From Eledone cirrhosa (Eukaryota), in the NCBI GenBank assembly GCA_964016885.1, contig OZ024744.1:108624001-108688000 (forward strand): a DNA stretch of 64,000 nt. The letters are read 5' to 3'. The notes under the pieces were generated by a model, which was given only the letters and a program-made list of their open reading frames with translations, was not told the DNA's origin and made no database searches. Of this stretch, positions 6,144 to 63,120 are shown piece by piece (position 1 is the first letter of the stretch; each line of letters starts with the position of its first letter). The translations under genes were made by a program, and so were the position numbers.

Positions 6144-6523
6144 ATTTATTAAAATAACAGATTAAAGTTTAAGCAAAGAATCGCTGCTTACTTTATTCTT
6201 AACTCTGAAGCCGAGAATCATTCGGTTTCCTAATTAGAATTTTAGTCTACGACTACAGTTATACCATTTACGTGGTTTTGTCTTTGCGTGTAATTGTTTT
6301 TCACCGCTCCAAATAATGACGTATTATATTCGTTGTTTCCCATTCTTTGCCAGGGAAAGTTTCCACGAACCAAAGTATCGTCTTCCTGTCTTCCTCTGGT
6401 TGCAACGTTTTTTGAAATATTTACTTCTGCGTTCACAGATTGACTTTGTTAGTTTCTGAAGATCCTGTTAAGGGTGAAAGCAGCGATTCTTTGCTTAAAC
6501 TTTAATCTGTTATTTTAATAAAT
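6144..6523 (+). mobile_element. Short PLE-type insertion (family A) with 46-bp inverted termini
   Basis: 6144-6189 is the reverse complement of 6478-6523; contains an HHR; partial second copy at 23785-23890. Confidence 0.75.
6451..6501 (+). ncRNA. Type I hammerhead ribozyme (family A)
   Basis: AGTTT CTGAAGA TCCTGTTAAGGGT GAAA GCA..TGC TT AAACT; stems I and III pair; triplet CUU. Confidence 0.75.
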
Positions 6524-6751: not shown

Positions 6752-7085
6752 GAAACGAAATTTCATTTCCCACTCTTAGTACGGCTGTTACTTAAATATA
6801 AGTATGTACACGTACATACATATATGTATACAGACATACAGTAGTATGTATATATATACATACATGAACACATATATATATATATATATGTACGTATGGA
6901 TTCACCGAACATTTATTATAATGCTCGGTCTGTTTGTAAGCAAACATCCCGTATTAAGCCGTAGTGTCTAGCAACCCTCGTTGCTCGTTTGTTCAACACT
7001 GACAAAGGAACGCTGTACTAGTTTCAAGCTTATTAGCTATCGTCAGCAACGTATACCTTCCTGCCAGATTGTTGAACGTTTGAAA
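6752..7085 (-). mobile_element. HHR-bearing repeat (family H)
   Basis: Homologous to 63300-63633 and 63720-63963. Confidence 0.75.
7011..7051 (-). ncRNA. Minimal type I hammerhead ribozyme (family H)
   Basis: Minus strand CGTTG CTGACGA tAGCTaataAGCTt GAAA CTAG TA CAGCG; palindromic stem III ACTAGT. Confidence 0.8.
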
Positions 7086-35862: not shown

Positions 35863-36163
35863 GTAATTCCGTCGGAAAAGTACAGGAAAAAGAGTGCTCT
35901 ATGTAGGTTACAGAGCTTAATAGTTATGTAATAAACAACATAAGGCAATTATTCCATTTACCAGTGGTTTCTTAAAAGCAAAAGATTTTGCTTTCAATCC
36001 TCAGAATGAAAAAATCCTGGTTTGTTTATTGAATTTGGATTTTAAAAACAAAAATGCAATCTATATGAAAGTGAGGCTGGAGAAGGAAGAAGGAAAGGAA
36101 AAAAATAAAATAAAACCACATGCAAACACGCACACAAACACGCACACACACAAAAGCATACAT

Positions 36164-37130: not shown

Positions 37131-37342
37131 CATACATACACACATACATGTGTGTGTGTAAAACTCAGTCTTATATAATTCATATGAACCTTACATATAC
37201 ATATATATAGTAGTAAAGTAATAAAGTAATAAGCAACATAAAGCAATTATTCCATTCACCAGTGGTTTCTTAAAAGCAAAAAAATTTTGCCTTCAATCCT
37301 CAGAATAAAAAAAACCTGGTCTATCTACATATACATATACAT

Positions 37343-37375
<33 letters not shown>
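35860..37375 (-). repeat. Microsatellite-rich repeat family K (left arm of a large inverted repeat)
   Basis: Collinear reverse complement of 52440-53140, 53570-53800 and 54740-54980; further copies at 55240-56500. Confidence 0.8.
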
Positions 37376-37377
<2 letters not shown>

Positions 37378-37469
37378 ACGAAGGAAATGTGGTAAGGAAC
37401 CAGGTGGACCATAACGCACCAAAGTACTCAATACTTGAGGTAGTAGAGTGGGTAATAGGAACCAGTAAG

Positions 37470-37563
37470 ACCCCGACAGCTGAGCTCAAGCCGTTTCGAC
37501 GGCTAATTCTGGACTAAATGAACATTTATCCTGGTATTTAAATAGCCGATCTTCTCAAGGGGT
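37470..37563 (-). ncRNA. Hammerhead ribozyme, U3-A8 core variant (inverted copy)
   Basis: Reverse complement of 43761-43854. Confidence 0.75.
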
Positions 37564-38671
37564 AATTCCATATATGGTCAAAGTGATTGTCAAAAATCAG
37601 TAGTAATTCTGTGGTTGCAAATTAGTAGGGGAGATGGTGGCTAAACCTGCCAGTAGGAGAAAAAGGGGAGGGGGTGGAGTAGACCCAATCAAGCGTTGGT
37701 AGTGCCAGCTACAGCTGGGCATGAGGTCAAAGAAGATACAGGGGAGGGGGAGGGGGAGGAAGCCGGAACGGAGGGTAGAACAATGGGGGGTAGAAATAGG
37801 AAAGAAAAAATACTGAGAGTGAAGAAAAGCAAATAAGTGTAAAGAAAAAAGTAAAGTAAATTAAATTCTACGACCTAGGTGTCAGGCTATTGTTAGGCGA
37901 GAATAAAATAAAGGAAGAAAGAAAGAAGTAAATAAATAAATAAATAAATAAATAAGGAAATAAGTAAAAGAACTAGGTGGGACGGATTAGGCAAGGACCC
38001 TTTTAAGAGGTATAAGTACGTAAATGATACGGTGACTGGTCAACAAAAGGGGCCAAAATACTAAAGAGACTACCACGAAATAAACAATAAAGGTTTCCAT
38101 CCCGGGCCAGCAACGACCCAGTGCAGCAAAGTGAACTTGTACGACATAATAATTCTGAGTCCCGAGAAAAATATATACTAATGCTAACTCTAAAAGATCT
38201 AAAACAAGCTACATGAAAGTTCGTACGAAATAAAGGTAGAATACGGAGAAATAAATTCAGAATCCACCCCGCCCAGAAGAAAAGCGAAGCAAGAAATACT
38301 GAAACGAAAAAATAAGGCATAAGTGCCACTAAGAAATATAGAGGGCACAGAGAATAGTGGGAGCGGTCGGAAAAAGGGGGCAAGTATCCGGGGTCTAAGC
38401 CAACTGCTATAAAGGGCGGAGTCCGCCAAATCTATCAAAGACTAGGGGAGGGGGGAGTGGGGGTACTAAGGCTACATGGGGCCAAAGGGCAGCCTCGGGT
38501 GGGCGAGAAAAGACGCCGACAAAGGAGAAGAGCTGGGGTAGAAGGACAAAGGAGAGAGGGGGGAAGGAAATAAAGGAAGCGATAAAAGAATACAAAGAAG
38601 ATCTTACGTCTTCCTTGGCAAGCAGGGGTTACCCATTGCAAAATCGGCAACTGGGGTGTTATAGCCCTAGT

Positions 38672-40329
38672 CTACCCCCCCGGGTCATTATGGGGTTTGA
38701 GGGCGAGGTAAGTCCTACGCAATCTATGTTTACATGCAGTAACCAGTTCATCTTTCTTGTTTAGGAGTTGGTCCGTCGAAAACAGCATTTGTAAAGTTTC
38801 CTCCGAGCATAAATTGCACGGACGGCGTCCTCCCGTGTAAGAATTTGGCTCTGGACAGTAATCTCCAAGTGAGATCATAGGTGATGTTGTTGTCCTTGAG
38901 GTCCCATATGTGGCCCGAAAGTGTAGTGGCGTGACGCCGGGCCGGGTTTCGGAAGGTATGTCTATGTTGGTATAGCCGGGTCTTGAAGTCACATGCGGTA
39001 AGTCCTATATAGGCTTTGTTGGAGGTATCCGTCCTCACGTTGCACTGGTAGATCACATTACGGTCTCTGCATCTATTGTCGAGTGGGCAAATAGATCTAT
39101 CCGGGCAGTTACACCTCCTGGTCGGTTCTCCACTGCTATTTAGGTTATTTCTGCCATCGGGGTTGAGTTTTTTGTTGTTAGAGGAGACGATGTTTTGTGC
39201 GAAGTTTGGTGTAGTGCTGTAAGAGAGTTTGATGGTATTTTTGTTAATTATGTTGTGGTAGCGGTGTTGTAATGGGAAGTGTTTTTCAATGAGCCTAAAG
39301 AATAGTTTCCCGATGGGAGTAGTCACCTCTGCGTTGTGGGGAGGATTGAACCATGTTACATTGCGTGAGCGGCGGTGTCTCCTGCTGGTTCCGCTAATGG
39401 GATCTGGACAGTAGGATATTTCCTCCCGGAAACCACTCCGCTTGAGGGCCTGGTTGTAATAAGGCGCATGTTCATCGAATATCCGCTCATTAGCTGACAA
39501 ACGGGATATGCGGAGGGAGATGTTTTTGACCAGGTTGTTTGTGATGTTCCTAGGATGGTTTGATCGGCGGTGGATGTAGTGCAGATTGTCATTAGGTTTC
39601 CTGTATGGGTAGTACAGGTCGTTTTCGAGGTCGAGGGTTACGTCCAGGAAGTTTACTCGGGTCAGGGACGTTTGTAGGGTTATTTTAAATCCCCAGTCGC
39701 GGAAGAATCTGATTAATTGTTTCCGGACCCGATCTGTACTACTGGGGTTGTACCCTTTAAGGGTAAGGAGCCCATCATCACGGTACAATCCACCACCGAA
39801 TGCAGGAAACATATCAGTGAGTTTGGCTATTAGGAATAATCCTATAAGATCAGTGACCTCCGCCGAATCCGTGGCGCCCATGCTGACGTCGAAGGGTGAG
39901 TCGGGAGCTCTTTTTATCCATTTAGAGTCGTCAAAGAGTAAGACTGTCTTCCTGGCGTGGAGGATGATTTTTCTTTCCTGGTCGGTGATGGGCACGAGTG
40001 TTTCGGCGAAGTCCAAGGCGGCAGTAAGTAGCGGTAAGGTGATTGAAGCATAGTAGCTCTCTATGTCGAACTGTATGAATTTAGTTTCTCGTTTATCCTC
40101 CATATTGCTGAACCAGGAGATTACTTCCTGGGTGTTGATCCATAGGCTAAGTCGGGTGTGTTGCTTGACTTTTGGTATCACGCGGTCTAGGATTTTTTTG
40201 CTGATTCTCCCTATGTCGGACTTCGTTGGGTTAATAAGCCTGATGGAGGGTTTACGGTCAAAATCGGATTTATGGTCCTTCAGTGTGAAGTATGGTGTCC
40301 GTGGGTCTAGAGGTTCCGTGCGGTCGGCG
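38672..40329 (-). pseudogene. Truncated PLE RT-GIY-YIG ORF with a 1-nt insertion near 38845
   Basis: Matches the + copy protein from ADRTEPL onward, then frameshifts at RAKFLHG. Confidence 0.9.
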
Positions 40330-40498
40330 ACCCACTCTACTACCTCAAGTATTGAGTACTTTGGTGCGTTATGGTCCACCTGGTTCCTTACCACATTTCC
40401 TTCGTTATCTAGCTCCTACTCCCGTAGTAGAGCACTTTCCGACCCTACCACGCCGTATCCAGACTTTTCCGCTAAGCTCAATTCATTTCACCCGCACC

Positions 40499-42652
40499 AT
40501 GCGAAAACACAACATTGACTTCTCTACCAAGAACATCCCAATCCCACCGAAAAAACTTTACCTTCGGATGCTCACGCAAAAAATTGATCTATTTGCGAAA
40601 AGACTTAGATGGAGAACTTTTTTCTATGACAGATATTGCGACAACCAAGACTTCGGCACCAAGGAGAGATTCGGATTTATTACCTACAAATCTCCGCCCC
40701 TGAACCCCTTGCTCGCACCCTTCGAGAATGACCTCTTCCAACTGGTCAAGAACATTAAATTTAAACCCAGACACAACCGATTCCTACAAAAACTCCGTAG
40801 CAACTTAACAGAGTATGATAACACAAATGACATCATGGTGCATTCGGATAAAACTGGGAACCTATACTTTGTCAACCCTGACAGATACCACACACTGATC
40901 AGGAGCAGCCTAAACTCCACCTATAAAAAGGCCAACCACTCTTGCATCGAGGACATAAATCGAGATGGACAACAAATCACCTCCAGCCTCGGGTTCGCCG
41001 ACCGCACGGAACCTCTAGACCCACGGACACCATACTTCACACTGAAGGACCATAAATCCGATTTTGACCGTAAACCCTCCATCAGGCTTATTAACCCAAC
41101 GAAGTCCGACATAGGGAGAATCAGCAAAAAAATCCTAGACCGCGTGATACCAAAAGTCAAGCAACACACCCGACTTAGCCTATGGATCAACACCCAGGAA
41201 GTAATCTCCTGGTTCAGCAATATGGAGGATAAACGAGAAACTAAATTCATACAGTTCGACATAGAGAGCTACTATGCTTCAATCACCTTACCGCTACTTA
41301 CTGCCGCCTTGGACTTCGCCGAAACACTCGTGCCCATCACCGACCAGGAAAGAAAAATCATCCTCCACGCCAGGAAGACAGTCTTACTCTTTGACGACTC
41401 TAAATGGATAAAAAGAGCTCCCGACTCACCCTTCGACGTCAGCATGGGCGCCACGGATTCGGCGGAGGTCACTGATCTTATAGGATTATTCCTAATAGCC
41501 AAACTCACTGATATGTTTCCTGCATTCGGTGGTGGATTGTACCGTGATGATGGGCTCCTTACCCTTAAAGGGTACAACCCCAGTAGTACAGATCGGGTCC
41601 GGAAACAATTAATCAGATTCTTCCGCGACTGGGGATTTAAAATAACCCTACAAACGTCCCTGACCCGAGTAAACTTCCTGGACGTAACCCTCGACCTCGA
41701 AAACGACCTGTACTACCCATACAGGAAACCTAATGACAATCTGCACTACATCCACCGCCGATCAAACCATCCTAGGAACATCACAAACAACCTGGTCAAA
41801 AACATCTCCCTCCGCATATCCCGTTTGTCAGCTAATGAGCGGATATTCGATGAACATGCGCCTTATTACAACCAGGCCCTCAAGCGGAGTGGTTTCCGGG
41901 AGGAAATATCCTACTGTCCAGATCCCATTAGCGGAACCAGCAGGAGACACCGCCGCTCACGCAATGTAACATGGTTCAATCCTCCCCACAACGCAGAGGT
42001 GACTACTCCCATCGGGAAACTATTCTTTAGGCTCATTGAAAAACACTTCCCATTACAACACCGCTACCACAACATAATTAACAAAAATACCATCAAACTC
42101 TCTTACAGCACTACACCAAACTTCGCACAAAACATCGTCTCCTCTAACAACAAAAAACTCAACCCCGATGGCAGAAATAACCTAAATAGCAGTGGAGAAC
42201 CGACCAGGAGGTGTAACTGCCCGGATAGATCTATTTGCCCACTCGACAATAGATGCAGAGACCGTAATGTGATCTACCAGTGCAACGTGAGGACGGATAC
42301 CTCCAACAAAGCCTATATAGGACTTACCGCATGTGACTTCAAGACCCGGCTATACCAACATAGACATACCTTCCGAAACCCGGCCCGGCGTCACGCCACT
42401 ACACTTTCGGGCCACATATGGGACCTCAAGGACAACAACATCACCTATGATCTCACTTGGAGATTACTGTCCAGAGCCAATTCTTACACGGGAGGACGCC
42501 GTCCGTGCAATTTATGCTCGGAGGAAACTTTACAAATGCTGTTTTCGACGGACCAACTCCTAAACAAGAAAGATGAACTGGTTACTGCATGTAAACATAG
42601 ATTGCGTAGGACTTACCTCGCCCTCAAACCCCATAATGACCCGGGGGGGTAG
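40499..42652 (+). CDS. PLE reverse transcriptase + C-terminal GIY-YIG endonuclease (717 aa from the first ATG)
   Basis: FSTKNIPIP N-terminus; FIQFDIESYYASI, VSMGA, LYRDDGL, VNFLDVTL; linker CNCx5CPL; VIYQC..YIGLT..FKTR; CNLC; LNKKDELVTACKH. The CxCx5C linker without CCHH is recalled as Hydra-clade. Confidence 0.93.
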   Translation: MRKHNIDFSTKNIPIPPKKLYLRMLTQKIDLFAKRLRWRTFFYDRYCDNQDFGTKERFGFITYKSPPLNPLLAPFENDLFQLVKNIKFKPRHNRFLQKLRSNLTEYDNTNDIMVHSDKTGNLYFVNPDRYHTLIRSSLNSTYKKANHSCIEDINRDGQQITSSLGFADRTEPLDPRTPYFTLKDHKSDFDRKPSIRLINPTKSDIGRISKKILDRVIPKVKQHTRLSLWINTQEVISWFSNMEDKRETKFIQFDIESYYASITLPLLTAALDFAETLVPITDQERKIILHARKTVLLFDDSKWIKRAPDSPFDVSMGATDSAEVTDLIGLFLIAKLTDMFPAFGGGLYRDDGLLTLKGYNPSSTDRVRKQLIRFFRDWGFKITLQTSLTRVNFLDVTLDLENDLYYPYRKPNDNLHYIHRRSNHPRNITNNLVKNISLRISRLSANERIFDEHAPYYNQALKRSGFREEISYCPDPISGTSRRHRRSRNVTWFNPPHNAEVTTPIGKLFFRLIEKHFPLQHRYHNIINKNTIKLSYSTTPNFAQNIVSSNNKKLNPDGRNNLNSSGEPTRRCNCPDRSICPLDNRCRDRNVIYQCNVRTDTSNKAYIGLTACDFKTRLYQHRHTFRNPARRHATTLSGHIWDLKDNNITYDLTWRLLSRANSYTGGRRPCNLCSEETLQMLFSTDQLLNKKDELVTACKHRLRRTYLALKPHNDPGG

Positions 42653-43760
42653 ACTAGGGCTATAACACCCCAGTTGCCGATTTTGCAATGGGTAACCCCT
42701 GCTTGCCAAGGAAGACGTAAGATCTTCTTTGTATTCTTTTATCGCTTCCTTTATTTCCTTCCCCCCTCTCTCCTTTGTCCTTCTACCCCAGCTCTTCTCC
42801 TTTGTCGGCGTCTTTTCTCGCCCACCCGAGGCTGCCCTTTGGCCCCATGTAGTCTTAGTACCCCCACTCCCCCCTCCCCTAGTCTTTGATAGATTTGGCG
42901 GACTCCGCCCTTTATAGCAGTTGGCTTAGATCCCGGATACTTGCCCCCTTTTTCCGACCGCTCCCACTATTCTCTGTGCCCTCTATATTTCTTAGTGGCA
43001 CTTATGCCTTATTTTTTCGTTTCAGTATTTCTTGCTTCGCTTTTCTTCTGGGCGGGGTGGATTCTGAATTTATTTCTCCGTATTCTACCTTTATTTCGTA
43101 CGAACTTTCATGTAGCTTGTTTTAGATCTTTTAGAGTTAGCATTAGTATATATTTTTCTCGGGACTCAGAATTATTATGTCGTACAAGTTCACTTTGCTG
43201 CACTGGGTCGTTGCTGGCCCGGGATGGAAACCTTTATTGTTTATTTCGTGGTAGTCTCTTTAGTATTTTGGCCCCTTTTGTTGACCAGTCACCGTATCAT
43301 TTACGTACTTATACCTCTTAAAAGGGTCCTTGCCTAATCCGTCCCACCTAGTTCTTTTACTTATTTCCTTATTTATTTATTTATTTATTTATTTACTTCT
43401 TTCTTTCTTTCTTTATTTTATTCTCGCCTAACAATAGCCTGACACCTAGGTCGTAGAATTTAATTTACTTTACTTTTTTCTTTACACTTATTTGCTTTTC
43501 TTCACTCTCAGTATTTTTTCTTTCCTATTTCTACCCCCCATTGTTCTACCTACCGTTCCGACTTCCTCCCCCTCCCCCTCCCCTGTATCTTCTTTGACCT
43601 CATGCCCAGCTGTAGCTGGCACTACCAACGCTTGATTGGGTCTACTCCACCCCCTCCCCTCTTTCTCCTACTGGCAGGTTTAGCCACCATCTCCCCTACT
43701 AATTTGCAACCACAGAATTACTACTGATTTTTGACAATCACTTTGACCATATATGGAATT

Positions 43761-43854
43761 ACCCCTTGAGAAGATCGGCTATTTAAATACCAGGATAAAT
43801 GTTCATTTAGTCCAGAATTAGCCGTCGAAACGGCTTGAGCTCAGCTGTCGGGGT
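43761..43854 (+). ncRNA. Type I hammerhead ribozyme with U3-A8 core (UUGAGAA)
   Basis: Stem I ACCCC/GGGGT, core TTGAGAA, stem II GA(T)CGGCTA/TAGCCGTC, GAAA, stem III CGGCT/AGCTG, GUC with C at 43849; lies at the PLE 3' end. Confidence 0.78.
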
Positions 43855-43864
43855 CTTACTGGTT

Positions 43865-43933
<69 letters not shown>

Positions 43934-43977
43934 TATGAGAGTAAAACAAAGAAGCCTTCAATACATCAAAAGTCTTT

Positions 43978-44022
43978 ATTAGCCAACAATGTTTCGTCCT
44001 ATTAAGGACTCATCAGGGCAAT
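43978..44022 (-). ncRNA. Minimal type I hammerhead ribozyme
   Basis: Minus strand ATTGCC CTGATGA GTCCT TAAT AGGAC GAAA CATTG TT GGCTAAT, overlapping AATAAA. Confidence 0.9.
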
Positions 44023-44822: not shown

Positions 44823-46610
44823 AATAATACTATAATAATACTATAATAATAATATAATAACATATATAATATTCAATATATAATGGCATTCAAGTTAACA
44901 AATCAATTCATATAGAGTTACAGAGTAGGTGAGGAAAAATAAATTGTACAATACCGAAAATTATGATGGTACAAAAATATAAACATCTTACATGATATAT
45001 AAAGTTTAACATATCATAATGTTACATATAATCAACGGTAAGTAATAAGGATCGATAGTACAATAACAAATACAATATAAAATAATTAACATAATATAAT
45101 ATATAATTACTTATAATTACAAGGTTGGTAAACAGACATATATGTGGATGAGTGAGTAAGGGCCAGACAGTAAATATAATGCACAGTAGTATTACAAATA
45201 AAATATAAAATAAAATAAATAAATAGAATCAACCGGAAATTAAAAAACAAAAACAAAAGTATACATTTAGGTCTCACATGCAGTTAAGTGAAAACTTAGG
45301 AAATAACCCCGGTAAATGACTCGAAAACCCTATTTGATAAATTAATATTAAAAATATTTAAAATATCCAATAAGGCAATATAATATTAGCTATGGTTTAA
45401 GTAATCAAAGTTTATAAACGTTAATATTTCCTTACAAATATTTACAAAAAGGAATGAAATTTTCTACTAACATATACATAACGATATCTAAAAAACTGAC
45501 TTAGGCAGAATTATGGTAGGCTAATAGGGACAGAAATAAAGAAATATATGAAGGATACAAAGGGGCATAAAATCATAGTCAATATACTATATTAAATAAT
45601 AGAAAGGAGCGTAAAAGAGGGGGGGATTAAATATAATCATAATCTATTTGGAGGGGTTGACAATAAGTTTATGTGCGCATGGGGGGGGGGGGGTATCCAA
45701 AGAAGAATCCAAATAAAAATAAAAATAAAATAAAATAAAATAAAATAAAATGAAATAAAATAAATAATGTAAAATATATAATCAGATATATACTCATAAG
45801 GTGTTAATAGTGAAAATTTAATGCGTAAGAAGATAGATATGGCATAGTAGCCAAAAGATTATGAGAGCTAGAATAAAGAGTTGTCAAAAACCAATGATAA
45901 TAATGATGATAATAATGGTGGTAAACAAAAATAACCTAAACTAAAAAATAAATAATGGAATATATCAGCTAATGGATACAATTTGTACTACTAGAACCTT
46001 TAGGTTTATAATAAAAGTAAGAATTAGAAATAGCGTGGGGGCAAGAAGAGAATATCTCAGACTTTCTATTAAGTAAGGATTCACTAGAGAAAATTATAGA
46101 GTGTGTCTCGAGGATACAGAGATTACAAAATTTAGTATGTGTAGAAAGGTTATTAGAGCGTGCTACTAAACGCCAGTTAAGGCTATATGGTATATTAGCC
46201 CCCTTAAGATCCCAGATATAATGTGCTAAAGAAGTAGAATTCTTAAACTTAACATGTTTGAAATTAGAGATATGAGAATTAAACCTAGTCTTAAAAGTGT
46301 TAGATGTAGAGCCTATATAAGTTCTATTAGAGGAATTAGTTATAACTACGCAAGCATAGACAATGTTCTTAGAGAGGCAGTTACCGTTTAAAGGGCAGTT
46401 AGCACTCACTCTACAGTTACACTTCCGGGTGTTATTGGTTGGCTCAAGTGGTGATGCATTACACGTAGGATTGCTATTAGATAAGGTCTGTTCTGATGGT
46501 AATGCATTTCCAGATCTGTTCAGACTAGTAGTCTGTAGAGAGGAGAATCCATCCCTAATTTTCCTATTGTTAGTGCTAGCTAAATGAGAACTAATATTAG
46601 GGGTGGTAGA

Positions 46611-47293
<683 letters not shown>

Positions 47294-48235: not shown

Positions 48236-48963
48236 TATATACACACACACACATACACATATACACATATACAAACAAATATATACACAAACAAGTAAAT
48301 AGGTACTCAATAAATATACGCATATACACAGGCACATAAAGACACCTCTACAGGCAGAAAATGTAGATACGAAAGAGGTACTCACATGACCATAGTGGCC
48401 GTATTTCAGGTTGAGGAGGGGGGGGTCGTTTTTAGCCATCGGGCTTTAACACTGGCTTAAAGTGTTTGAATGTTGCAAAGTTCTTGTGCATGCAGTTCGG
48501 GCAGTGTTCAGAGAGTTTGTTCAGTAGCGGGCCCTTGGCGAATAAAATTTCGTAGCTCTCTGAAATACAAAGGTCGCAGCCCTTGTGTCCTCCGTTGTAA
48601 GAGCGCGCTTTCTGGAGTATTTTCCAATTAAGCGTGAAGGGGGTGGAGTTCCTTTTGAGGTCCCAAACGTAGGAGGCGAGTGTTGTTTGATTTGATTTAT
48701 CCGGTCTTCTGAAGGAGTGGGTATGAGCATACCAGCGGGTCTTAAAGGTGTTGGAGGTCATGCCGATGTAAGTTTTTTTGCAATCCTCGGTGCCCGAGAT
48801 GACATCGCATTTGTATACGATGTCATTTGTGAGGCATTTGTTTTCTAGTGGGCATGCTTCCTTATTAAGGCAATTACATAGAGCCCCAGTCCGGGGATTG
48901 GTTTCGGAGGTGGTTGGCTTGTGTATATATATGTGTATGTGTGTGTATTTGTATGTATATATG

Positions 48964-51057: not shown

Positions 51058-51108
51058 AGATTCCTGATGATTTCTAATGAATGAAACAGTTCTAGTCCTG
51101 TAGAATCT
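51058..51108 (+). ncRNA. Type I hammerhead ribozyme at the end of a PLE-like 3'UTR (~50610-51190)
   Basis: AGATTC CTGATGA tTTCtaatGAAt GAAA CAG..CTG TA GAATCT. Confidence 0.82.
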
Positions 51109-51249: not shown

Positions 51250-52015
51250 CATAGGTATGTGAAGGGCAAGGCAAAAAGAATATATGGGGAGGGGGGACAG
51301 GAAAAGGTGAAATATAAGGGGAGATAAGGGAGAAAAAAATATATACAAGAGTACAGAACGTAGATTCAGCAAAATAAAAAAAACCGTAGCAGAAGTAAAG
51401 AGCAGAAAAGGAGTTCAAGGCGGTTGATTTATCATAGGAGTGTCAATCCAGTTACAGATCAGATGCGATTTCAGATGAGGACAGCATCTGAAGATCTCAG
51501 TCTTTGAGTTAAGACAAGCGGAAGTGGCTCTCAAGTTTAGCAAAATCCTATATTTTTCTGTGGTACACAAAGAACAATTCTTTGTGCCCCTTTGGTACTC
51601 CCTCGAATGGTCTAATATAGACCAATCGATAGAGTACGGGATGTTACTATCCTTGAATTCCCACACCTTACTTGCGAGGGCCGTTGATGTTCGTTTATCG
51701 GAGTGCTTAAAAGAAGTGACATGTGAGTAAAATCTGGTTTTAAACTTGTCCTGGGTCATACCGACATATCGCTCACTCCTGGCTGGCTGGTTGTTGATTA
51801 CCGGTGTTATTTTAGCCTCATAAACAACAGATTTGGTGTTACATTTACCCTGGAATGGGCATTCATCCGGCTTCCTGCAACTGCATCCTGGATTTGTTCT
51901 CGTATGGTTTGAACTGATGATTTTGGACTTCATAGATGGGCAACAAGAGTAGCTGGTCTTAACTGCGTTCCTATTAAATATCTTATAATATCTATGATTA
52001 GGAGGAAACCAGCTT
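51250..52015 (-). mobile_element. PLE GIY-YIG fragment (fourth family)
   Basis: VKTSYSC, CSCRKPDECPFQGKC, VVY..YVGMT..FKTR, CSLC, LNSKTEIFRCCPH. Confidence 0.88.
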
Positions 52016-52056: not shown

Positions 52057-52366
52057 TTTATAAAACCATATTTATTTCATTATACATATTTCAGGGATAC
52101 CAAATTAAATTATGGTATGCCTTCATCAGACAAAATACAATATATAACAGTTTTACAAATAAGCTTTGACGTACCCTTTTAAAATGCAACCATTATTTTT
52201 GGAAGCCATCCGGATGGCTTCCCAAAATAATGGTTGCATTTTAAAAGGGTACGTCAAAGCTTATTTGTAAAACTGTTATATATTGTATTTTGTCTGATGA
52301 AGGCATACCATAATTTAATTTGGTATCCCTGAAATATGTATAATGAAATAAATATGGTTTTATAAA
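52057..52366. mobile_element. Spacerless fold-back palindrome (family D), HHR on each arm (52073-52137 -, 52286-52350 +)
   Basis: Centre atcc|ggat at 52211/52212; TATTTTGT CTGATGA AGGCATACCA..TGGTATCCCT GAAA TATGTA TA ATGAAATA. Confidence 0.88.
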
Positions 52367-53149: not shown

Positions 53150-53570
53150 AATATAAGATCAAAAGATTGTTAAAGGAGTTCCATGTATTTTATTATGCGC
53201 ATTTCAAAAACAAACATCATCATGCAATAATAGTTGTGTTTTCATCAGATAAAACAGGAGAACATGATATGAAGGCTAAAAAACACTTGTGGATAGTGCA
53301 GTTTTAAATCAACATGTTGATTTAAAACTGCACTATCCACAAGTGTTTTTTAGCCTTCATATCATGTTCTCCTGTTTTATCTGATGAAAACACAAATATT
53401 ATTGCATGATGATGTTTGTTTTTGAAATGCGCATAATAAAATACATGGAACTCCTTTAACCATCTTTTGATCTTATATTATGTATACTCCAGTCCTACAA
53501 ACTGTAGAGTGCTTCTTATCCGATATCTGCATTGCTTTATTGTACTACAATAAAACTCACCTCCTACATA
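53150..53570. mobile_element. Spacerless fold-back palindrome (family F, 53150-53479) plus tail; HHRs at 53188-53254 - and 53375-53441 +
   Basis: Centre aaca|tgtt at 53314/53315; TTTTAT CTGATGA AAACACAAA..TTTGTTTTT GAAA TGCGCA TA ATAAAA. Confidence 0.88.
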
Positions 53571-53809: not shown

Positions 53810-54279
53810 GCAAAAGTTTTATTTAAAATTGTTGGGTTACAACGAGTAAATATTTTATAACTGATATAAAGCACTCAACAAATTTTGGAGTAGATATACG
53901 ATATTAAACAAATGGAAACTATATTTATAAAACCATATTTATTTCATTATACATATTTCAGGGATACCATATTAAAAATATGGCATGCCTTCTTCAGATA
54001 AAATACAATATATAAGCAGTTTTATAAATAAATTTGACGTACCATAAAATATTGATCAACTTCCATTTAAAAAAGTTGGTTTGATGGAAGTTGATCAATA
54101 TTTTTTAAATGGAAGTTGATCAATATTTTATGGTACGTCAAATTTATTTATAAAACTGCTTATATATTGTATTTTATCTGAAGAAGGCATGCCATATTTT
54201 TAATATGGTATCCCTGAAATATGTATAATGAAATAAATATGGTTTTATAAATATAGTTTCCATTTGTTTAATATCGTAT
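53810..54279. mobile_element. Fold-back element (family D); HHRs at 53940-54005 - and 54170-54235 +
   Basis: Arms 53897-54075 and 54101-54279; CTGAAGA core. Confidence 0.87.
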
Positions 54280-54295
54280 ATATATAATATATATA

Positions 54296-54737
<442 letters not shown>

Positions 54738-55292
54738 CTTTTGTGTGTGTGTGTGCGTGTGTGTGTGCGTGTTTGCATGTGTGGTTTTATTTTATTTTTT
54801 TCCTTTCCTCCTTCTTTCTCCAGCCTCGCTTTCATATAGATTGCATTTTTGTTTTTAAAATCCAAATTCAATAAACAGACCAGGATTTTTTCATTCTGAG
54901 GATTGAAAGCAAAATCTTTTGCTTTTAAGAAACCACTGGTAAATGGAATAATTGCCTTATGTTGTTTATTACATAACTATATATATATATATAGAGAGAG
55001 AGGCTGTATATATAACAATACACACATGTGTGTATATGTGTGTGCGTGTTTTCAGTTTGTCTGCCACAGAGCCTTTATCAATACACACATGCGTGTGTGG
55101 AGGGTATGGGGCTTGTTGTGTGTGTTTGCGTGTGTGTTTTTTTCAGCCTGTCTGTCACAGATGCCTTTGTGGTGGGAAATTAAGAACATTTTTTTCTTAA
55201 AAATTCAGAAAATTGTCATGCGTATGTATCCGTGTATAGATGTGTGTATGTATGTGTGTGTATGTACGTGTGTATATATGTATGATTGTGTG

Positions 55293-55665: not shown

Positions 55666-55915
55666 GTGTTTATTTTTCCTTTCCTTCTTCCTTTTCCAGC
55701 CTCACTTTCATATAGATTATATTTTTGTTTTTAAAATCCAATGTCAATAAATACACCACGATTTTTTCATTCTGATGATTGAAAGCAAAATTTGTTTGCT
55801 TTCAAGAAACCACTGGTAAATGAAATAATTGCCTTATGTTGTTTATTACATAACTATTAAGCTCTGTAACCTACATAGAGCACTCTTTTTTCCTGGACCT
55901 TTCCGACGGAATTAC

Positions 55916-56802: not shown

Positions 56803-57500
56803 ATATATCATAAAACATGTCTATAGAATCACCAGATAAAATATATACCATTTCCTCTCCCAATTAGCATAATTAACTATATAAAAAATCGAATAGACCA
56901 AGCTATAAGAATAAGGCTTCTATGAAGAAATCTCCAACAAATAACCGAAACTAGCCCTTCGCGTCGGCTACGACGGAATATTTATCGAATATTTCGACAG
57001 CGTAATTAGGTTGAGATACAAATTTGGCTGTATTGTGCTGTGCTTTCTAGCAAAAAGCCACCAGCCATAAGTAACTACCACACTCCTTCCAACCTGACCG
57101 CTGCTACGTCACGATTCTTAGCCATTTTTGAATGTATTCTTGGCGCGATCACTTTGGAAAATTTATTGTCTAGATTAGAGCAAACTCCTGAAGAGTCCGA
57201 TGGTCGAATTTCCGAAGATATTGGAAATCTCAAAATGCGGACGAAACCATGGTAGAGGTAAATAAATGTATTCTCTTTTCTCCTAGTTTATTTTACACCT
57301 AATTCTGTTTAATTGACTGTATCTAGGCGATTACGCTGTCGAAATATACGATAAATATTCCGTCGTAGCCGACGCGAAGGGCTAGTTTCGGTTATTTGTT
57401 GGAGATTTCTTCATAGAAGCCTTATTCTTATAGCCTGGCCTATTCGATTTTTTATATAGTTAATTATGCTAATTGGGAGAGGCATGTTTTATGATATATA
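56803..57500 (+). mobile_element. Fold-back element (family G) with ~155-bp inverted arms
   Basis: 56853-57007 is the reverse complement of 57330-57483. Confidence 0.85.
57185..57257 (+). ncRNA. Type I hammerhead ribozyme (family G)
   Basis: CTC CTGAAGA GTCCG..CGGAC GAAA CCATGG TA GAG; palindromic ACCATGGT; AATAAA at 57261. Confidence 0.88.
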
Positions 57501-61520: not shown

Positions 61521-61575
61521 ACTGCTATATATATTTCGGTGACGGCCATCATTGGCTGTGACCTCTTCAGGCAGT
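61521..61575 (-). ncRNA. Type I hammerhead ribozyme
   Basis: Minus strand ACTGC CTGAAGA GGTCACAGCCA..TGGCCGTCACC GAAA TATATA TA GCAGT. Confidence 0.87.
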
Positions 61576-62650
61576 CCGAATTGGTGTTGGAAAGACAGGT
61601 ACACATGTTGTTGATGTGTGTTTTACTCCGTCAATACATCGATATGTCCAGCTCCTGGTTGTGTTGTTATTTCCTTGAGGAACTGGAATCATATGATTCC
61701 AGTTCCCCAAGGAATATGTATATATATATATGTGTGTGTGCATGTGTGTATATATATATGTGTGTTTGTGAGTGTGTATATGTGAGTATATGTGTATGAG
61801 TGTTTATATATGAGTGTGTGTACATGTATGAGGTGTGTACATACACACACATATATATGTATATCTGTGTGTATATATATATGTATATATGTATATATAT
61901 ATATGTATATATGTGGGTATAGGTGTGTACGTGTTGATATAGATATTTATAGATATGTGTGTATATGATTATGTGCACATGTGTAAATGTGTATTTAGGT
62001 TTGCATCTATTTGTGCGTATATATATTTTTGGTTGGATATCAATATAACTTACCTCTCTATATATAGTGTGGATATATGCACTTTGTAATCTATGAAATG
62101 TATGTGTTTTAACTATGCCAACATGTATTTATCTGAGTTTGATTATTTATACATAAACATACTTGATAGTATTTTAGAACATATCATACGCTGTATTATA
62201 CTAAGTGAAATTTACCACACAGTACTATAATGTGTTGGTTAAGTTGTATATTATCGCATTACTGTATTTCATTTTCTTACTATAATTTTCATCTTTTAAT
62301 ATACTATCTTTCCTAGCCATAACCTTAATTTATATTCACCTAAAAACTCAATACAACACTAATCAACATTTATTTTTACATTCCTTTTTAACTTCACTAT
62401 ACCAGATACATTCAACTATCAGTTTGACAATCCCTTTCCTCCTAATAGATTTTTATGCCAATTCTACTATTAACACCCTTCAACCATTCCTTTCAAAGGG
62501 TCATGACCTCAACTAAAGTGTATTACTTTTCATCTTAACACCATATGAAAAAAACAATTTGATTGGTTAGTTCTTCAACTTCCTCCGAACAAGAACATGA
62601 TACTAACATACTACTAATTCTGAATAAAATTATTATTGAATAAAATTATT

Positions 62651-62790
62651 ATTGCTTTTGAAAACAGCTGGTGATATGCATGTAAGTAAATATTCTCTTT
62701 ATCTGATATTTTGTAACTAAACTTACATAGATCAATAACGGAGTATAGCTACAATGTATTATCATCACCTAGAAACGATCGTAAAACAGT
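62651..62790 (+). ncRNA. Hammerhead ribozyme, U3-A8 core variant (UUGAAAA), decayed
   Basis: ATTGCTT TTGAAAA cag..GGTGAT..ATCACCta GAAA CGATCG TA AAACAGT; palindromic ACGATCGT. Confidence 0.62.
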
Positions 62791-62836
62791 GAAGTTTATC
62801 TCTAATGACTTGATTTTTTATTTCATTGTTTTAACT

Positions 62837-63035: not shown

Positions 63036-63120
63036 GACATATTACAATCGTTTCTCTGGGGCGACCAGCTCGAGGCACGATCGAAGCTGACTCTGAAATC
63101 GCAAGGTCGTCAGATACGTC
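63036..63120 (-). ncRNA. Type I hammerhead ribozyme
   Basis: Minus strand GACGTAT CTGACGA ..GCGA..CAGCT..AGCTG.TCGC.. GAAA CGATTG TA ATATGTC. Confidence 0.8.

What the first reader, a model, noticed from the sequence alone, without database searches (positions are those of the whole stretch)
43761..43854. Young intact PLE ends in a hammerhead with a compensatory C3U/G8A core
Seen: three stems close around UUGAGAA instead of CUGANGA, with GAAA and GUC intact; the inverted copy (37470-37563) is identical. An unrelated family shows UUGAAAA (62651-62790). Established: C3 and G8 form a Watson-Crick pair in the active hammerhead, so U3-A8 preserves it, but canonical-core searches would miss it. Positional support: the ORF-bearing copy starts about 21 nt downstream of the predicted cut site. 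An alternative hairpin AGCCGT-CGAA-ACGGCT sequesters GAAA and could act as an off state (inference).
Basis: partly seen in the sequence, partly recalled or inferred. Interest (0 to 1): 0.75.

Follow-up and report, generated by a model that had tools for sequence, protein, structure and literature searches.

The report
Retrotransposon hammerhead with U3-A8 core
A young, very abundant Penelope-like retrotransposon carries near its 3' end a hammerhead-ribozyme fold whose core reads UUGAGAA instead of CUGANGA; it is predicted to cut its own RNA, but this core variant is already described in such elements, so it is a new example, not a new kind.

Summary
Window 43761-43854 (+) and 37470-37563 (-) are identical. 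They fold into three helices around UUGAGAA...GAAA...GUC. A strict descriptor finds only these two sites in the window and none in 100 shuffles.

The host element is an intact 786-aa RT plus GIY-YIG element with Hydra-clade hallmarks. It sits in (TA)n as a head-to-head pair and has over 2,200 near-identical copies.

The hammerhead reading is supported by comparison:
- With the core letters left free, 100 listed copies keep U4, G5, A6, A8 and A9 (99-100 of 100), while N7 takes all four bases.
- A second PLE family in the window (62651-62790; proteins 37-51% identical) has the same U3-A8 core and the same pattern.

The "compensatory C3U/G8A" reading is only partly supported:
- In the core census of this family, U3-A8 has 5,526 hits, C3.A8 1,848, U3.G8 61 and C3-G8 12.
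- Positions 3 and 8 do not covary on the tree.
- Mismatch-bearing subfamilies still amplified.

The "+21 nt" offset coincides with the insertion's own 3' end and fits an RT start site better than a ribozyme cut. Natural U3-A8 hammerheads were published in 2011, and in PLEs in 2014. Cleavage is untested. Interest is modest.

The parts
43761..43854 (+). Hammerhead-type motif (type I). Stem I is 43761-43765 with 43850-43854. The core UUGAGAA is 43766-43772. Stem II is 43773-43780 with 43820-43826, with U43775 bulged. Loop II is 43781-43819. GAAA is 43827-43830. Stem III is 43830-43835 with 43843-43848. Loop III (UGAGCUC) is 43836-43842. The predicted cut lies after C43849.
37470..37563 (-). Identical copy of the motif in the inverted, 5'-truncated partner element (U3 at 37558, C17 at 37475)
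43755..43866 (+). Extended fold: a distal part of stem I (GGAAUU with GGUUCC) beyond a 6-nt bulge, CUUACU
   Evidence: the distal part varies between subfamilies
40330..43869 (+). Full unit of the PLE. It ends at GGTTCCTAT followed by (TA)n. The unit spacing in tandem arrays elsewhere in the genome is 3531 nt.
40292..42652 (+). Open frame of 786 aa (RT plus C-terminal GIY-YIG nuclease). Its first 13 codons lie in the inverted partner, so the likely start is the Met at residue 70, near 40499.
37455..40333 (-). Inverted, 5'-truncated copy joined head to head with the full unit
   Evidence: arms 100% over 1489 nt and 99% over 1391 nt
37372..37453 (-). 82-nt "tail": the first bases of the next unit, present only on this arm and followed by (TA)n. 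It marks the second of the two alternative 3' ends.
43870..43935 (.). (TA)n/(TG)n microsatellite, the insertion target
62651..62790 (+). Second hammerhead-type motif, from another PLE family. Its core is UUGAAAA, its stem III is the palindrome CGAUCG, and the predicted cut is UA^A. Stem I is 8 bp in most genomic copies.

Best explanation
The 94-nt stretch is a hammerhead-type three-helix junction with a U3-A8 core pair, sitting 20 nt before the 3' end of a young Hydra-clade Penelope-like retrotransposon. It is predicted to cleave its own transcript after C43849. Cleavage is likely slow or protein-assisted, and it is likely not required for insertion.

Shown:
- The fold and the core letters.
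- The place of the motif in the element.
- The conservation pattern among thousands of copies and in a second family.

Inferred:
- That the RNA cleaves.
- That cleavage trims read-through or multimeric transcripts.
- That the near-isoenergetic AGCCGU/ACGGCU hairpin competes with the active fold.

U3-A8 is an inherited, maintained state of this PLE lineage, not a recent double mutation. Position 3 can drift to C, and position 8 to G, in masters that still amplify.
For: Motif:
- 2 sites in the window against 0 in 100 shuffles.
- All non-3/8 core letters are present: U4, G5, A6, A9, G10.1-C11.1, G12, A13, A14, A15.1-U16.1 and C17.

Place:
- The cut lies 20 nt before the insertion end and about 190 nt before the next ORF in tandem arrays.
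- In the published Hydra-clade list, hammerheads also lie at the 3' end of the consensus (PMC8557442 File S2).

Host element:
- The ORF shows RWR, DKT, CxCX5C, GIY...YIG and CxxC..E..N..CxH, which match the clade description (PMC8557442 section 11).
- It inserts in (TA)n.

Selection signature, family 1. With 10 core letters left free there are 5,510 hits. The first 100, tallied by eye, give:
- U4 100, G5 99, A6 100, A8 100, A9 99, G10.1 97.
- N7: G 68, U 15, A 10, C 7.

Selection signature, family 2. There are 830 hits. The first 100 give U3 100 and A8 97, and N7 is the only subfamily-level variable position (A 61 against C 25).

The 3' half, which the pattern did not force, has a per-column diversity of 0.06-0.13, apart from the stem III 3' strand (0.23, two variable columns). 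The upstream pLTR has 0.35-0.40, and the bulge and distal stem have 0.36.

U3-A8 cores are reported as natural and active variants (PMC3088659 section 8, passages). They are also reported in PLEs of a flatworm (PMC4209133 section 5).
Against: - No cleavage data exist. The runs found are assembled contigs of unknown kind and cannot show RNA ends.
- No Rfam hammerhead model reaches E <= 10 on the window's copy or on 7 loci holding C3-G8 copies.
- The fold energy is no better than shuffles.
- C3.A8 subfamilies, which lack the 3-8 Watson-Crick pair, have 1,848 of 7,447 core hits, so the pair is not needed for amplification.
- The 24-nt 3' half has 52,348 hits. In a sample taken blind to the 5' half, 32 of 39 copies lack the 5' half altogether, so a whole hammerhead is not needed in cis for a copy to be made.
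- Loop III and part of loop II are conserved too, which a hammerhead does not require.
- For another PLE, core mutants did not affect insertion in vitro, and no RNA-seq reads ended at the site (PMC11167929).
Confidence: 0.6

Rival explanations
1. Relic hammerhead kept for another reason. The conserved 3' half (AGCCGUC-GAAA-CGGCU-UGAGCUC-AGCCG-UC-GGGG) plus the following ~100 nt would be the cis element that the element's protein binds to start reverse transcription at two nearby sites. The RNA would not need to cleave, and may not cleave.
For: - The 3' half is 7 times more abundant than the 5' core (52,348 against 7,447 hits).
- 32 of 39 sampled copies start in loop II (window-equivalent 43803-43819). 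They end at +20 (17 copies) or about +101 nt (15 copies), often as abutting inverted pairs.
- The short stretch therefore carries all that is needed to be copied.
- Loop III and the 3' part of loop II are conserved.
- In RNAs that lack the 5' half, the AGCCGU/ACGGCU hairpin would form unopposed.
- C3.A8 lineages amplified.
- In vitro, PLE reverse transcription starts at two internal sites, and hammerhead mutants insert normally (PMC11167929).
Against: - It does not explain why the 5' core box keeps U4, G5, A6, A8 and A9 while N7 and 10.2 run free, in two families whose stems and loops are otherwise unalike.
- It does not explain why the three helices are kept in both families.
- The two explanations are not exclusive.
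Confidence: 0.3
2. A recent compensatory double mutation (C3U plus G8A) arose in this young family from a canonical CUGANGA ancestor, as the title of the finding implies.
For: - Published Hydra-clade hammerheads are all CUGANGA (File S2 of PMC8557442).
- 17 canonical min-hammerhead-like motifs lie in the same window, against 0.12 expected.
- 12 copies of this family read C3-G8.
Against: - A8 is found in 7,374 of 7,447 core hits across all subfamilies.
- The 12 C3-G8 copies are scattered among C3.A8 relatives and form no clade. I judge (my estimate; no call computed it) that this few fits single post-insertion A>G changes.
- The nearest relatives of the young subfamily are already U3-A8 (L067, L068, L070).
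- A second family, 37-51% identical in protein, also has U3-A8.
- Positions 3 and 8 show no co-variation: of 7 independent pairs, on average 0.6 go the same way, 1.2 the other way and 5.2 show no difference.
Confidence: 0.05
3. Chance resemblance in AT-rich repeat DNA.
For: - The fold energy is not better than shuffles.
- With a relaxed descriptor, U3-A8-type hits occur by chance at 0.53 per shuffled window.
Against: - The strict descriptor gives 0 hits in 100 shuffles.
- The position in the element is the one expected for this clade.
- The core conservation pattern appears in two families.
Confidence: 0.02

Closest known systems
U3-A8 hammerhead variants in Penelope-like elements of Schistosoma mansoni (Cervera & De la Pena 2014, PMC4209133; section 5 read)
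   Same: - A hammerhead in the pLTR of a PLE.
- A core with U3-A8 instead of C3-G8.
- A long stem II with an unpaired base near its 5' end.
- G10.1-C11.1.
- Many dispersed copies, often as close pairs on opposite strands.
   Different: Those are minimal motifs with a 1-2 bp or palindromic helix III, thought to act as dimers. Here stem III is 6 bp with a 7-nt loop (monomer-type) and loop II is 39 nt. The host clade is Hydra, not Cercyon. The window's second family (62651-62790) does have the palindromic, dimer-type helix III.
Natural U3-A8 covariation in hammerheads (Perreault et al. 2011, PMC3088659; passages of section 8 read)
   Same: The same two core positions are changed to a Watson-Crick U-A pair. 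The paper states that such cores had been shown active in vitro.
   Different: Those examples are from other genomic contexts. The activity of the present sequence is untested.
Canonical hammerheads of Hydra-clade PLEs (Craig et al. 2021, PMC8557442; section 11 and supplementary Files S1-S2, part 2, read)
   Same: - The same clade hallmarks in the protein.
- (TA)n targets.
- A type I hammerhead at the very 3' end.
- A stable 3-4 bp (here 6 bp) stem III.
   Different: - Every Hydra-clade row in File S2 that I read has CUGANGA. This family has UUGAGAA.
- Loop II is 3-10 nt there and 39 nt here.
- The elements there are mostly under 3 kb. This unit is about 3.53 kb, with a 1.1-kb stretch between the stop codon and the hammerhead.
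Poseidon PLE of the green anole, PAc (Frangieh et al. 2024, PMC11167929; abstract and main text read)
   Same: - A hammerhead just upstream of two internal RT start sites.
- A "tail" between those sites that is present in only some copies.
- AT-rich targets.
- Both DNA strands are used, which fits the head-to-head pairs seen here.
   Different: - PAc has a C3-G8 core that overlaps the start codon, and a 30-40 bp tail. Here the tail is about 80 nt.
- PAc's ribozyme needed protein to cleave and was dispensable for insertion in vitro. Nothing of this is tested here.

Membership tests
Hammerhead ribozyme (type I) | Three helices meeting at one junction, with helix I open | tested here: met
   The MFE fold gives all three helices. 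The strict descriptor finds 2 hits, with stems I/II/III of 5/8/5 bp. Pair probabilities are 0.76-0.98.
Hammerhead ribozyme (type I) | Invariant core letters U4 G5 A6 A9, G12 A13 A14, A15.1-U16.1, H17 | tested here: met
   All are read directly. Across copies with the core left free they are kept in 99-100 of 100 (tallied by eye).
Hammerhead ribozyme (type I) | C3 and G8 identities (CUGANGA box) | tested here: not met
   The core reads U3 and A8. The pair is Watson-Crick, a variant described in print (PMC3088659, PMC4209133).
Hammerhead ribozyme (type I) | Positions 3 and 8 kept complementary among relatives | tested here: inconclusive
   The census gives U-A 5,526, C.A 1,848, U.G 61 and C-G 12. 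There is no co-variation on the tree. In family 2, U3 is 100 of 100 and A8 is 97 of 100.
Hammerhead ribozyme (type I) | Match to a curated covariance model (Rfam hammerhead families) | tested here: not met
   There are 0 matches at gathering score in the window. No hammerhead family reaches E <= 10 in 43700-43900 or in 7 loci with C3-G8 copies. The 17 canonical min-hammerhead-like motifs of the window are also missed, so the models seem not to cover PLE-type motifs.
Hammerhead ribozyme (type I) | Site-specific self-cleavage 3' of position 17 | not testable with these tools
   Only assembled contigs were available, with no read ends.
Hammerhead ribozyme (type I) | Tertiary contact between loop II and stem I loop or bulge | not tested
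   A 6-nt bulge in stem I and a 39-nt loop II exist. No contact was modelled.
Penelope-like element, Hydra clade | Single ORF with RT and C-terminal GIY-YIG nuclease | tested here: inconclusive
   The ORF is 786 aa with YRDD, VIY...YIG and the E and N motifs, by eye. Pfam gives 0 families at E <= 0.1 and PDB gives 0 hits. The Atlas's nearest clusters carry GIY-YIG, RVT_1 and HTH_animal on a minority of members, so they are leads only.
Penelope-like element, Hydra clade | Clade motifs: RWK-like, DKT, CxCX5C linker, CxxC and CxH around E and N, no CCHH | tested here: met
   RWR, SDKTG, CNCPDRSIC, CNLCSEE and CKH were read and compared with the description in PMC8557442 section 11. This was by inspection only, without an alignment to reference proteins.
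Penelope-like element, Hydra clade | Insertion into (TA)n; tandem or partial-tandem copies (pLTR), an inverted 5'-truncated partner, and a tail | tested here: met
   (tandem spacing 3531)
Dimeric minimal PLE hammerhead (min-HHR) | Helix III of 1-2 bp or fully palindromic, so that two copies must pair | tested here: not met
   Here stem III is 6 bp with a 7-nt loop. The loop holds the palindrome GAGCUC. The window's second family (CGAUCG) does meet this feature.

The most novel reading that the evidence does not exclude
This genome holds a natural mutational series at hammerhead positions 3 and 8 (U-A, C.A, U.G, C-G) inside one very active PLE lineage, each state with its own copy-number record. 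The module's 3' half alone is copied more than 50,000 times. The hammerhead fold and the competing AGCCGU/ACGGCU hairpin would then be two states of one RNA switch. One state cleaves read-through transcripts. The other presents the adjacent sites where reverse transcription starts. Ribozyme activity would tune retrotransposition rather than permit it.
Probability: 0.2. Interest if true: 0.6.

Novelty: new member of a known kind. Interest (0 to 1): 0.35.

Why it matters
What hammerheads do for Penelope-like elements is an open question. They are almost always present, yet they were dispensable for insertion in the one in vitro system studied (PMC11167929).

This family offers a large, young and internally varied data set in one genome:
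- Thousands of copies with U3-A8, C3.A8 or U3.G8 cores.
- A second family with the same variant core.
- A clear separation between what is conserved for the fold and what is copied most often.

It also shows that searches built on CUGANGA, and the Rfam models, under-count hammerheads in a clade reported to carry canonical ones throughout. The core variant itself is not new.

Tried and rejected
- Rfam at gathering score on the whole window, at E <= 10 on 43700-43900, and at E <= 10 on 7 loci with C3-G8 copies. No hammerhead family matched. The hits were microsatellite-driven miRNA models.
- Fold energy against shuffles. It was not significant, so it is not used as support.
- Public runs. There were 5 rows: one RNA run holding 0.11 of the sampled words, and four of unknown kind. 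All are kept as assembled contigs. Laying four of them gave no places where molecules begin or end, so neither expression nor cleavage can be told. The sharp rise of depth from about L007 1566 onwards was first read as a short abundant relative. Searches then showed it is partly that (5'-truncated copies) and partly the higher conservation of the 3' half.
- Earlier notes of this scan: none for this genome.
- Pfam and PDB sequences gave nothing for the ORF.
- Lunse et al. 2017 (PMC5785218) is not held. What it says on core variants of PLE hammerheads was not seen and may bear on novelty.
- I first took the C3.A8 subfamily B for the direct ancestor of the young subfamily, with C3U as the compensating step. 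I rejected this after searches showed that the nearest relatives are U3-A8 with C at 10.2.
- The canonical C3-G8 copies as an ancestral subfamily: rejected as unproven. There are 12 hits and no clade.

Full report
**1. What is there**

Window 43761-43854 reads ACCCC UUGAGAA GA(U)CGGCU [39 nt] AGCCGUC GAAA CGGCU UGAGCUC AGCUG UC^GGGGU. The reverse complement of 37470-37563 is the same over all 94 nt.

In hammerhead numbering:
- U3 is 43766 and A8 is 43771.
- G10.1-C11.1 is 43773-43826.
- G12 to A15.1 is 43827-43830.
- U16.1 is 43848 and C17 is 43849.

An unconstrained fold of 43755-43870 returns all three helices plus a distal extension of helix I beyond a 6-nt bulge, at -27.7 kcal/mol. This energy is ordinary for the composition (z = -0.40; 70 of 200 shuffles fold as well).

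A strict descriptor required a core with C3-G8 or U3-A8, helices of at least 4, 4 and 3 bp, GAAA and U-H. It finds only these two sites on both strands of the window, and none in 100 dinucleotide-preserving shuffles.

**2. The element**

The motif lies at the end of a 3.54-kb unit (40330-43869). This unit is joined head to head with a 5'-truncated inverted copy (37455-40333). The arms are 100% identical over 1489 nt and 99% over 1391 nt.

The minus arm carries 82 further bases (37372-37453) that repeat the first bases of the unit. Both arms are followed by (TA)n.

The unit holds an open frame of 786 aa. By eye it shows RWR, DKT, YRDD, a CxCX5C linker, GIY...YIG, and CxxC / CxH around the conserved E and N. 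This is the set that Craig et al. 2021 give for their Hydra clade, together with (TA)n targets, inverted 5'-truncated partners and a "tail" (PMC8557442; section 11 and passages).

Other checks on the ORF:
- Pfam gives nothing, and PDB sequences give nothing.
- The protein atlas puts it next to unnamed eukaryotic clusters and to clusters with GIY-YIG and RVT_1 on a minority of members. These are leads only.

The family is young and large:
- All 40 scored full-length matches of a 130-nt query are 100% identical, out of 413 candidates.
- Tandem arrays with 3531-nt spacing exist.
- The exact 19-nt core-plus-stem pattern has 2,214 hits, with 0 in the reversed control.

**3. Is it a hammerhead?**

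Rfam does not say so:
- There are no matches at gathering score in the window.
- No hammerhead family reaches E <= 10 around the motif.
- No hammerhead family reaches E <= 10 in seven loci whose copies carry the canonical CUGAGGA.

A relaxed descriptor finds 17 canonical min-hammerhead-like motifs in the same window, against 0.12 per shuffle. Rfam misses these as well. That Rfam holds several hammerhead families is my recollection. The calls show only that none was listed.

The positive evidence is comparative.

- Family 1, core left free. I searched the genome with the ten core letters left free, anchored on CCCC, CGGCUA and the 3' strand of helix II. This gave 5,510 hits. In the first 100 listed, tallied by eye: U4 100, G5 99, A6 100, A8 100, A9 99 and G10.1 97. 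N7 is G 68, U 15, A 10, C 7. Position 10.2 also varies, and position 3 is U 82, C 17, G 1.
- 3' half. The 3' half of the motif was not part of the 5' core pattern used to pick those rows. Its per-column diversity is 0.06-0.13 (two columns of the stem III 3' strand vary more; that segment averages 0.23). The upstream pLTR has 0.35-0.40 and the bulge and distal helix I have 0.36 (95 rows, chosen by core type, so the sample is not random).
- Family 2. There are 1,872 candidates, and its loci hold ORF pieces 37-51% identical to this ORF. Its helices have different sequences, its helix III is the palindrome CGAUCG (the dimer type typical of PLEs), and its core is UUGAAAA.
- Family 2, core left free. 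This gives 830 hits. The first 100 are 61 UUGAAAA, 25 UUGACAA, 2 UUGAUAA and 12 singletons. U3 is 100 of 100 and A8 is 97 of 100 (by eye).

In both families N7, the one hammerhead core position known to be free, is the core position that varies most freely between subfamilies; in family 2 it is the only one, while in family 1 positions 3 and 10.2 vary too. This is the signature expected of master copies kept under selection for a hammerhead core.

**4. The 3-8 pair**

A census of CC[3]TGA[7][8]AG[10.2]TCGGCT in the genome gives (controls 0; total 7,447):

| State | Hits |
|---|---|
| U3/A8 | 5,526 |
| C3/A8 | 1,848 |
| U3/G8 | 61 |
| C3/G8 | 12 |

These are not only scattered mutations:
- A subfamily marked by ATTCAT in loop II has 1,011 hits. 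In the first 100, 95 are C3/A8, 4 are U3/A8 and 1 is C3/U8.
- A clade of 13 sampled copies is uniformly U3.G8, with 99% support.

The 12 C3-G8 copies lie scattered among C3.A8 relatives and form no clade.

The tree has 105 rows of 342 nt, with positions 3 and 8 masked. It is a quick search with a midpoint root, and the rows were chosen to include rare states. On it, the young subfamily nests among U3-A8 copies that differ at 10.2 and in helix III.

Seven independent pairs differ at position 3. Averaged over 200 random pairings of these, position 8 goes the same way in 0.6, the other way in 1.2 and shows no difference in 5.2 (median p = 1).

So within this family positions 3 and 8 vary independently. 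Lineages without a 3-8 Watson-Crick pair still amplified to well over a thousand copies.

All observed states are pyrimidine-3 with purine-8. The sharing of U3-A8 with a family about 45% identical in protein indicates that U3-A8 is old and maintained.

**5. The positional argument**

That boundary is also the insertion's own 3' end.

Copies end either at GGTTCCTAT (+20) or about 80 nt further on, at ...CCTTCGTTAT. Each end is followed by (TA)n (table 7, 33, 53, 68).

Frangieh et al. 2024 showed for an anole PLE (PMC11167929, main text) that:
- Reverse transcription starts at two adjacent internal sites.
- The "tail" is the stretch between them.
- Both target strands are cut and extended.
- Hammerhead core mutants insert normally in vitro.
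- The ribozyme needs the protein to cleave.
- No RNA-seq reads end at the ribozyme site.

The layout here fits that picture: one arm with the tail, one without, joined head to head.

The 24-nt 3' half of the motif has 52,348 exact hits. In the first 30 loci (39 distinct copies, sampled blind to the 5' half):
- 32 copies begin at positions equivalent to window 43803-43819, inside loop II.
- Only 7 copies hold the 5' half.
- None begins at the predicted cut.

The common 5' end of templates or cDNAs is therefore not the ribozyme site. A whole hammerhead is not needed for a copy to be made.

**6. The alternative hairpin**

AGCCGU-CGAA-ACGGCU is real. It exists because the 5' strands of helices II and III share CGGCU and their 3' strands share AGCYG. 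A fold that enforces it reaches -27.3 kcal/mol, against -27.7 for the hammerhead fold. Its pairs hold 0.24 of the ensemble. Whether it acts as an off state is inference. In the many copies that lack the 5' half, it would be the only option.

**7. What is known**

- Perreault et al. 2011 state that C3 and G8 covary to U3 and A8 in several natural hammerheads, and that such cores had been shown active (PMC3088659, section 8 passages).
- Cervera and De la Pena 2014 report the U3-A8 covariation in PLE hammerheads of Schistosoma mansoni, with about 1,300 hits (PMC4209133, section 5).
- Searches for "hammerhead" with "U3-A8" and with "C3-G8" found 1 and 2 papers.
- Craig et al. 2021 state that canonical hammerheads are universal in the Hydra clade. 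Every Hydra-clade row I read in their File S2 has CUGANGA, a loop II of 3-10 nt and a 3-4 bp helix III.

The present family is thus a Hydra-clade member with the known variant core and an unusually large loop II. It is a new member of a known kind.

**8. Verdict**

- The hammerhead reading is supported by comparison, and cleavage is untested.
- "Compensatory" holds only in the sense of a known, inherited U3-A8 variant.
- The positional support is better explained by the RT start sites.
- Interest is modest. Its main value is the natural series of core states and the very abundant 3' fragments.

Noticed in passing
own genome; L121-L150 (e.g. L128 1406-1602); equivalent to window 43803-43869 plus the tail: The last ~65-150 nt of the element runs from the 3' part of loop II to one of the two ends. 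It is by far the commonest form: the 24-nt 3' half of the hammerhead has 52,348 exact hits, and 32 of 39 sampled copies start at window-equivalent 43803-43819. Many are abutting head-to-head pairs, with one arm ending at +20 and the other at about +101 nt.
   Followed up: partly
window 52081-52342, 53194-53435, 53948-54395, 54896-54941, 55772-55818, 35959-36004, 57188-57254, 61526-61570, 63043-63113, 43985-44016, 7016-7046, 6456-6496, 51064-51102: 17 canonical (CUGANGA) min-hammerhead-like motifs, several as inverted pairs and several with a palindromic helix III, against 0.12 expected per shuffled window. Rfam lists none of them at gathering score. Their host elements were not worked out.
   Followed up: partly
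window 46002-46691 (-), 48435-48878 (-), 51475-52008 (-): Pieces of other GIY-YIG nuclease ORFs, 32-41% identical to the C-terminal part of this element's protein. The region is a nest of PLE insertions in microsatellites.
   Followed up: no
window 62630-62835; L151-L170: A second PLE family with a U3-A8 hammerhead. Most genomic copies have G where the window copy has A at 62774 (helix I position 1.3), which gives a perfect 8-bp helix I. Copies end at ...TTTTAACTTATAT, followed by (TA)n or by the next unit.
   Followed up: yes
window 35921-36028 and 37219-37327: A ~108-nt direct repeat, 86-88% identical, lies on either side of a long (CA)n/(TA)n tract just left of the insertion. The left copy holds one of the canonical hammerhead-like motifs (35959-36004, minus strand).
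   Followed up: no
L007 1607 (window-equivalent 43846) and relatives: The young subfamily differs from its nearest relatives within the motif by C>A at 10.2 (which creates an A-U pair) and C>U at 16.3 (G-C becomes G.U). One step further out on the tree, among the C3.A8 subfamily B and relatives, the copies also have C where the young subfamily has G at the first base of the distal helix I 3' strand (which adds a U.G pair). All these changes keep or improve pairing, but this is a single lineage.
   Followed up: partly
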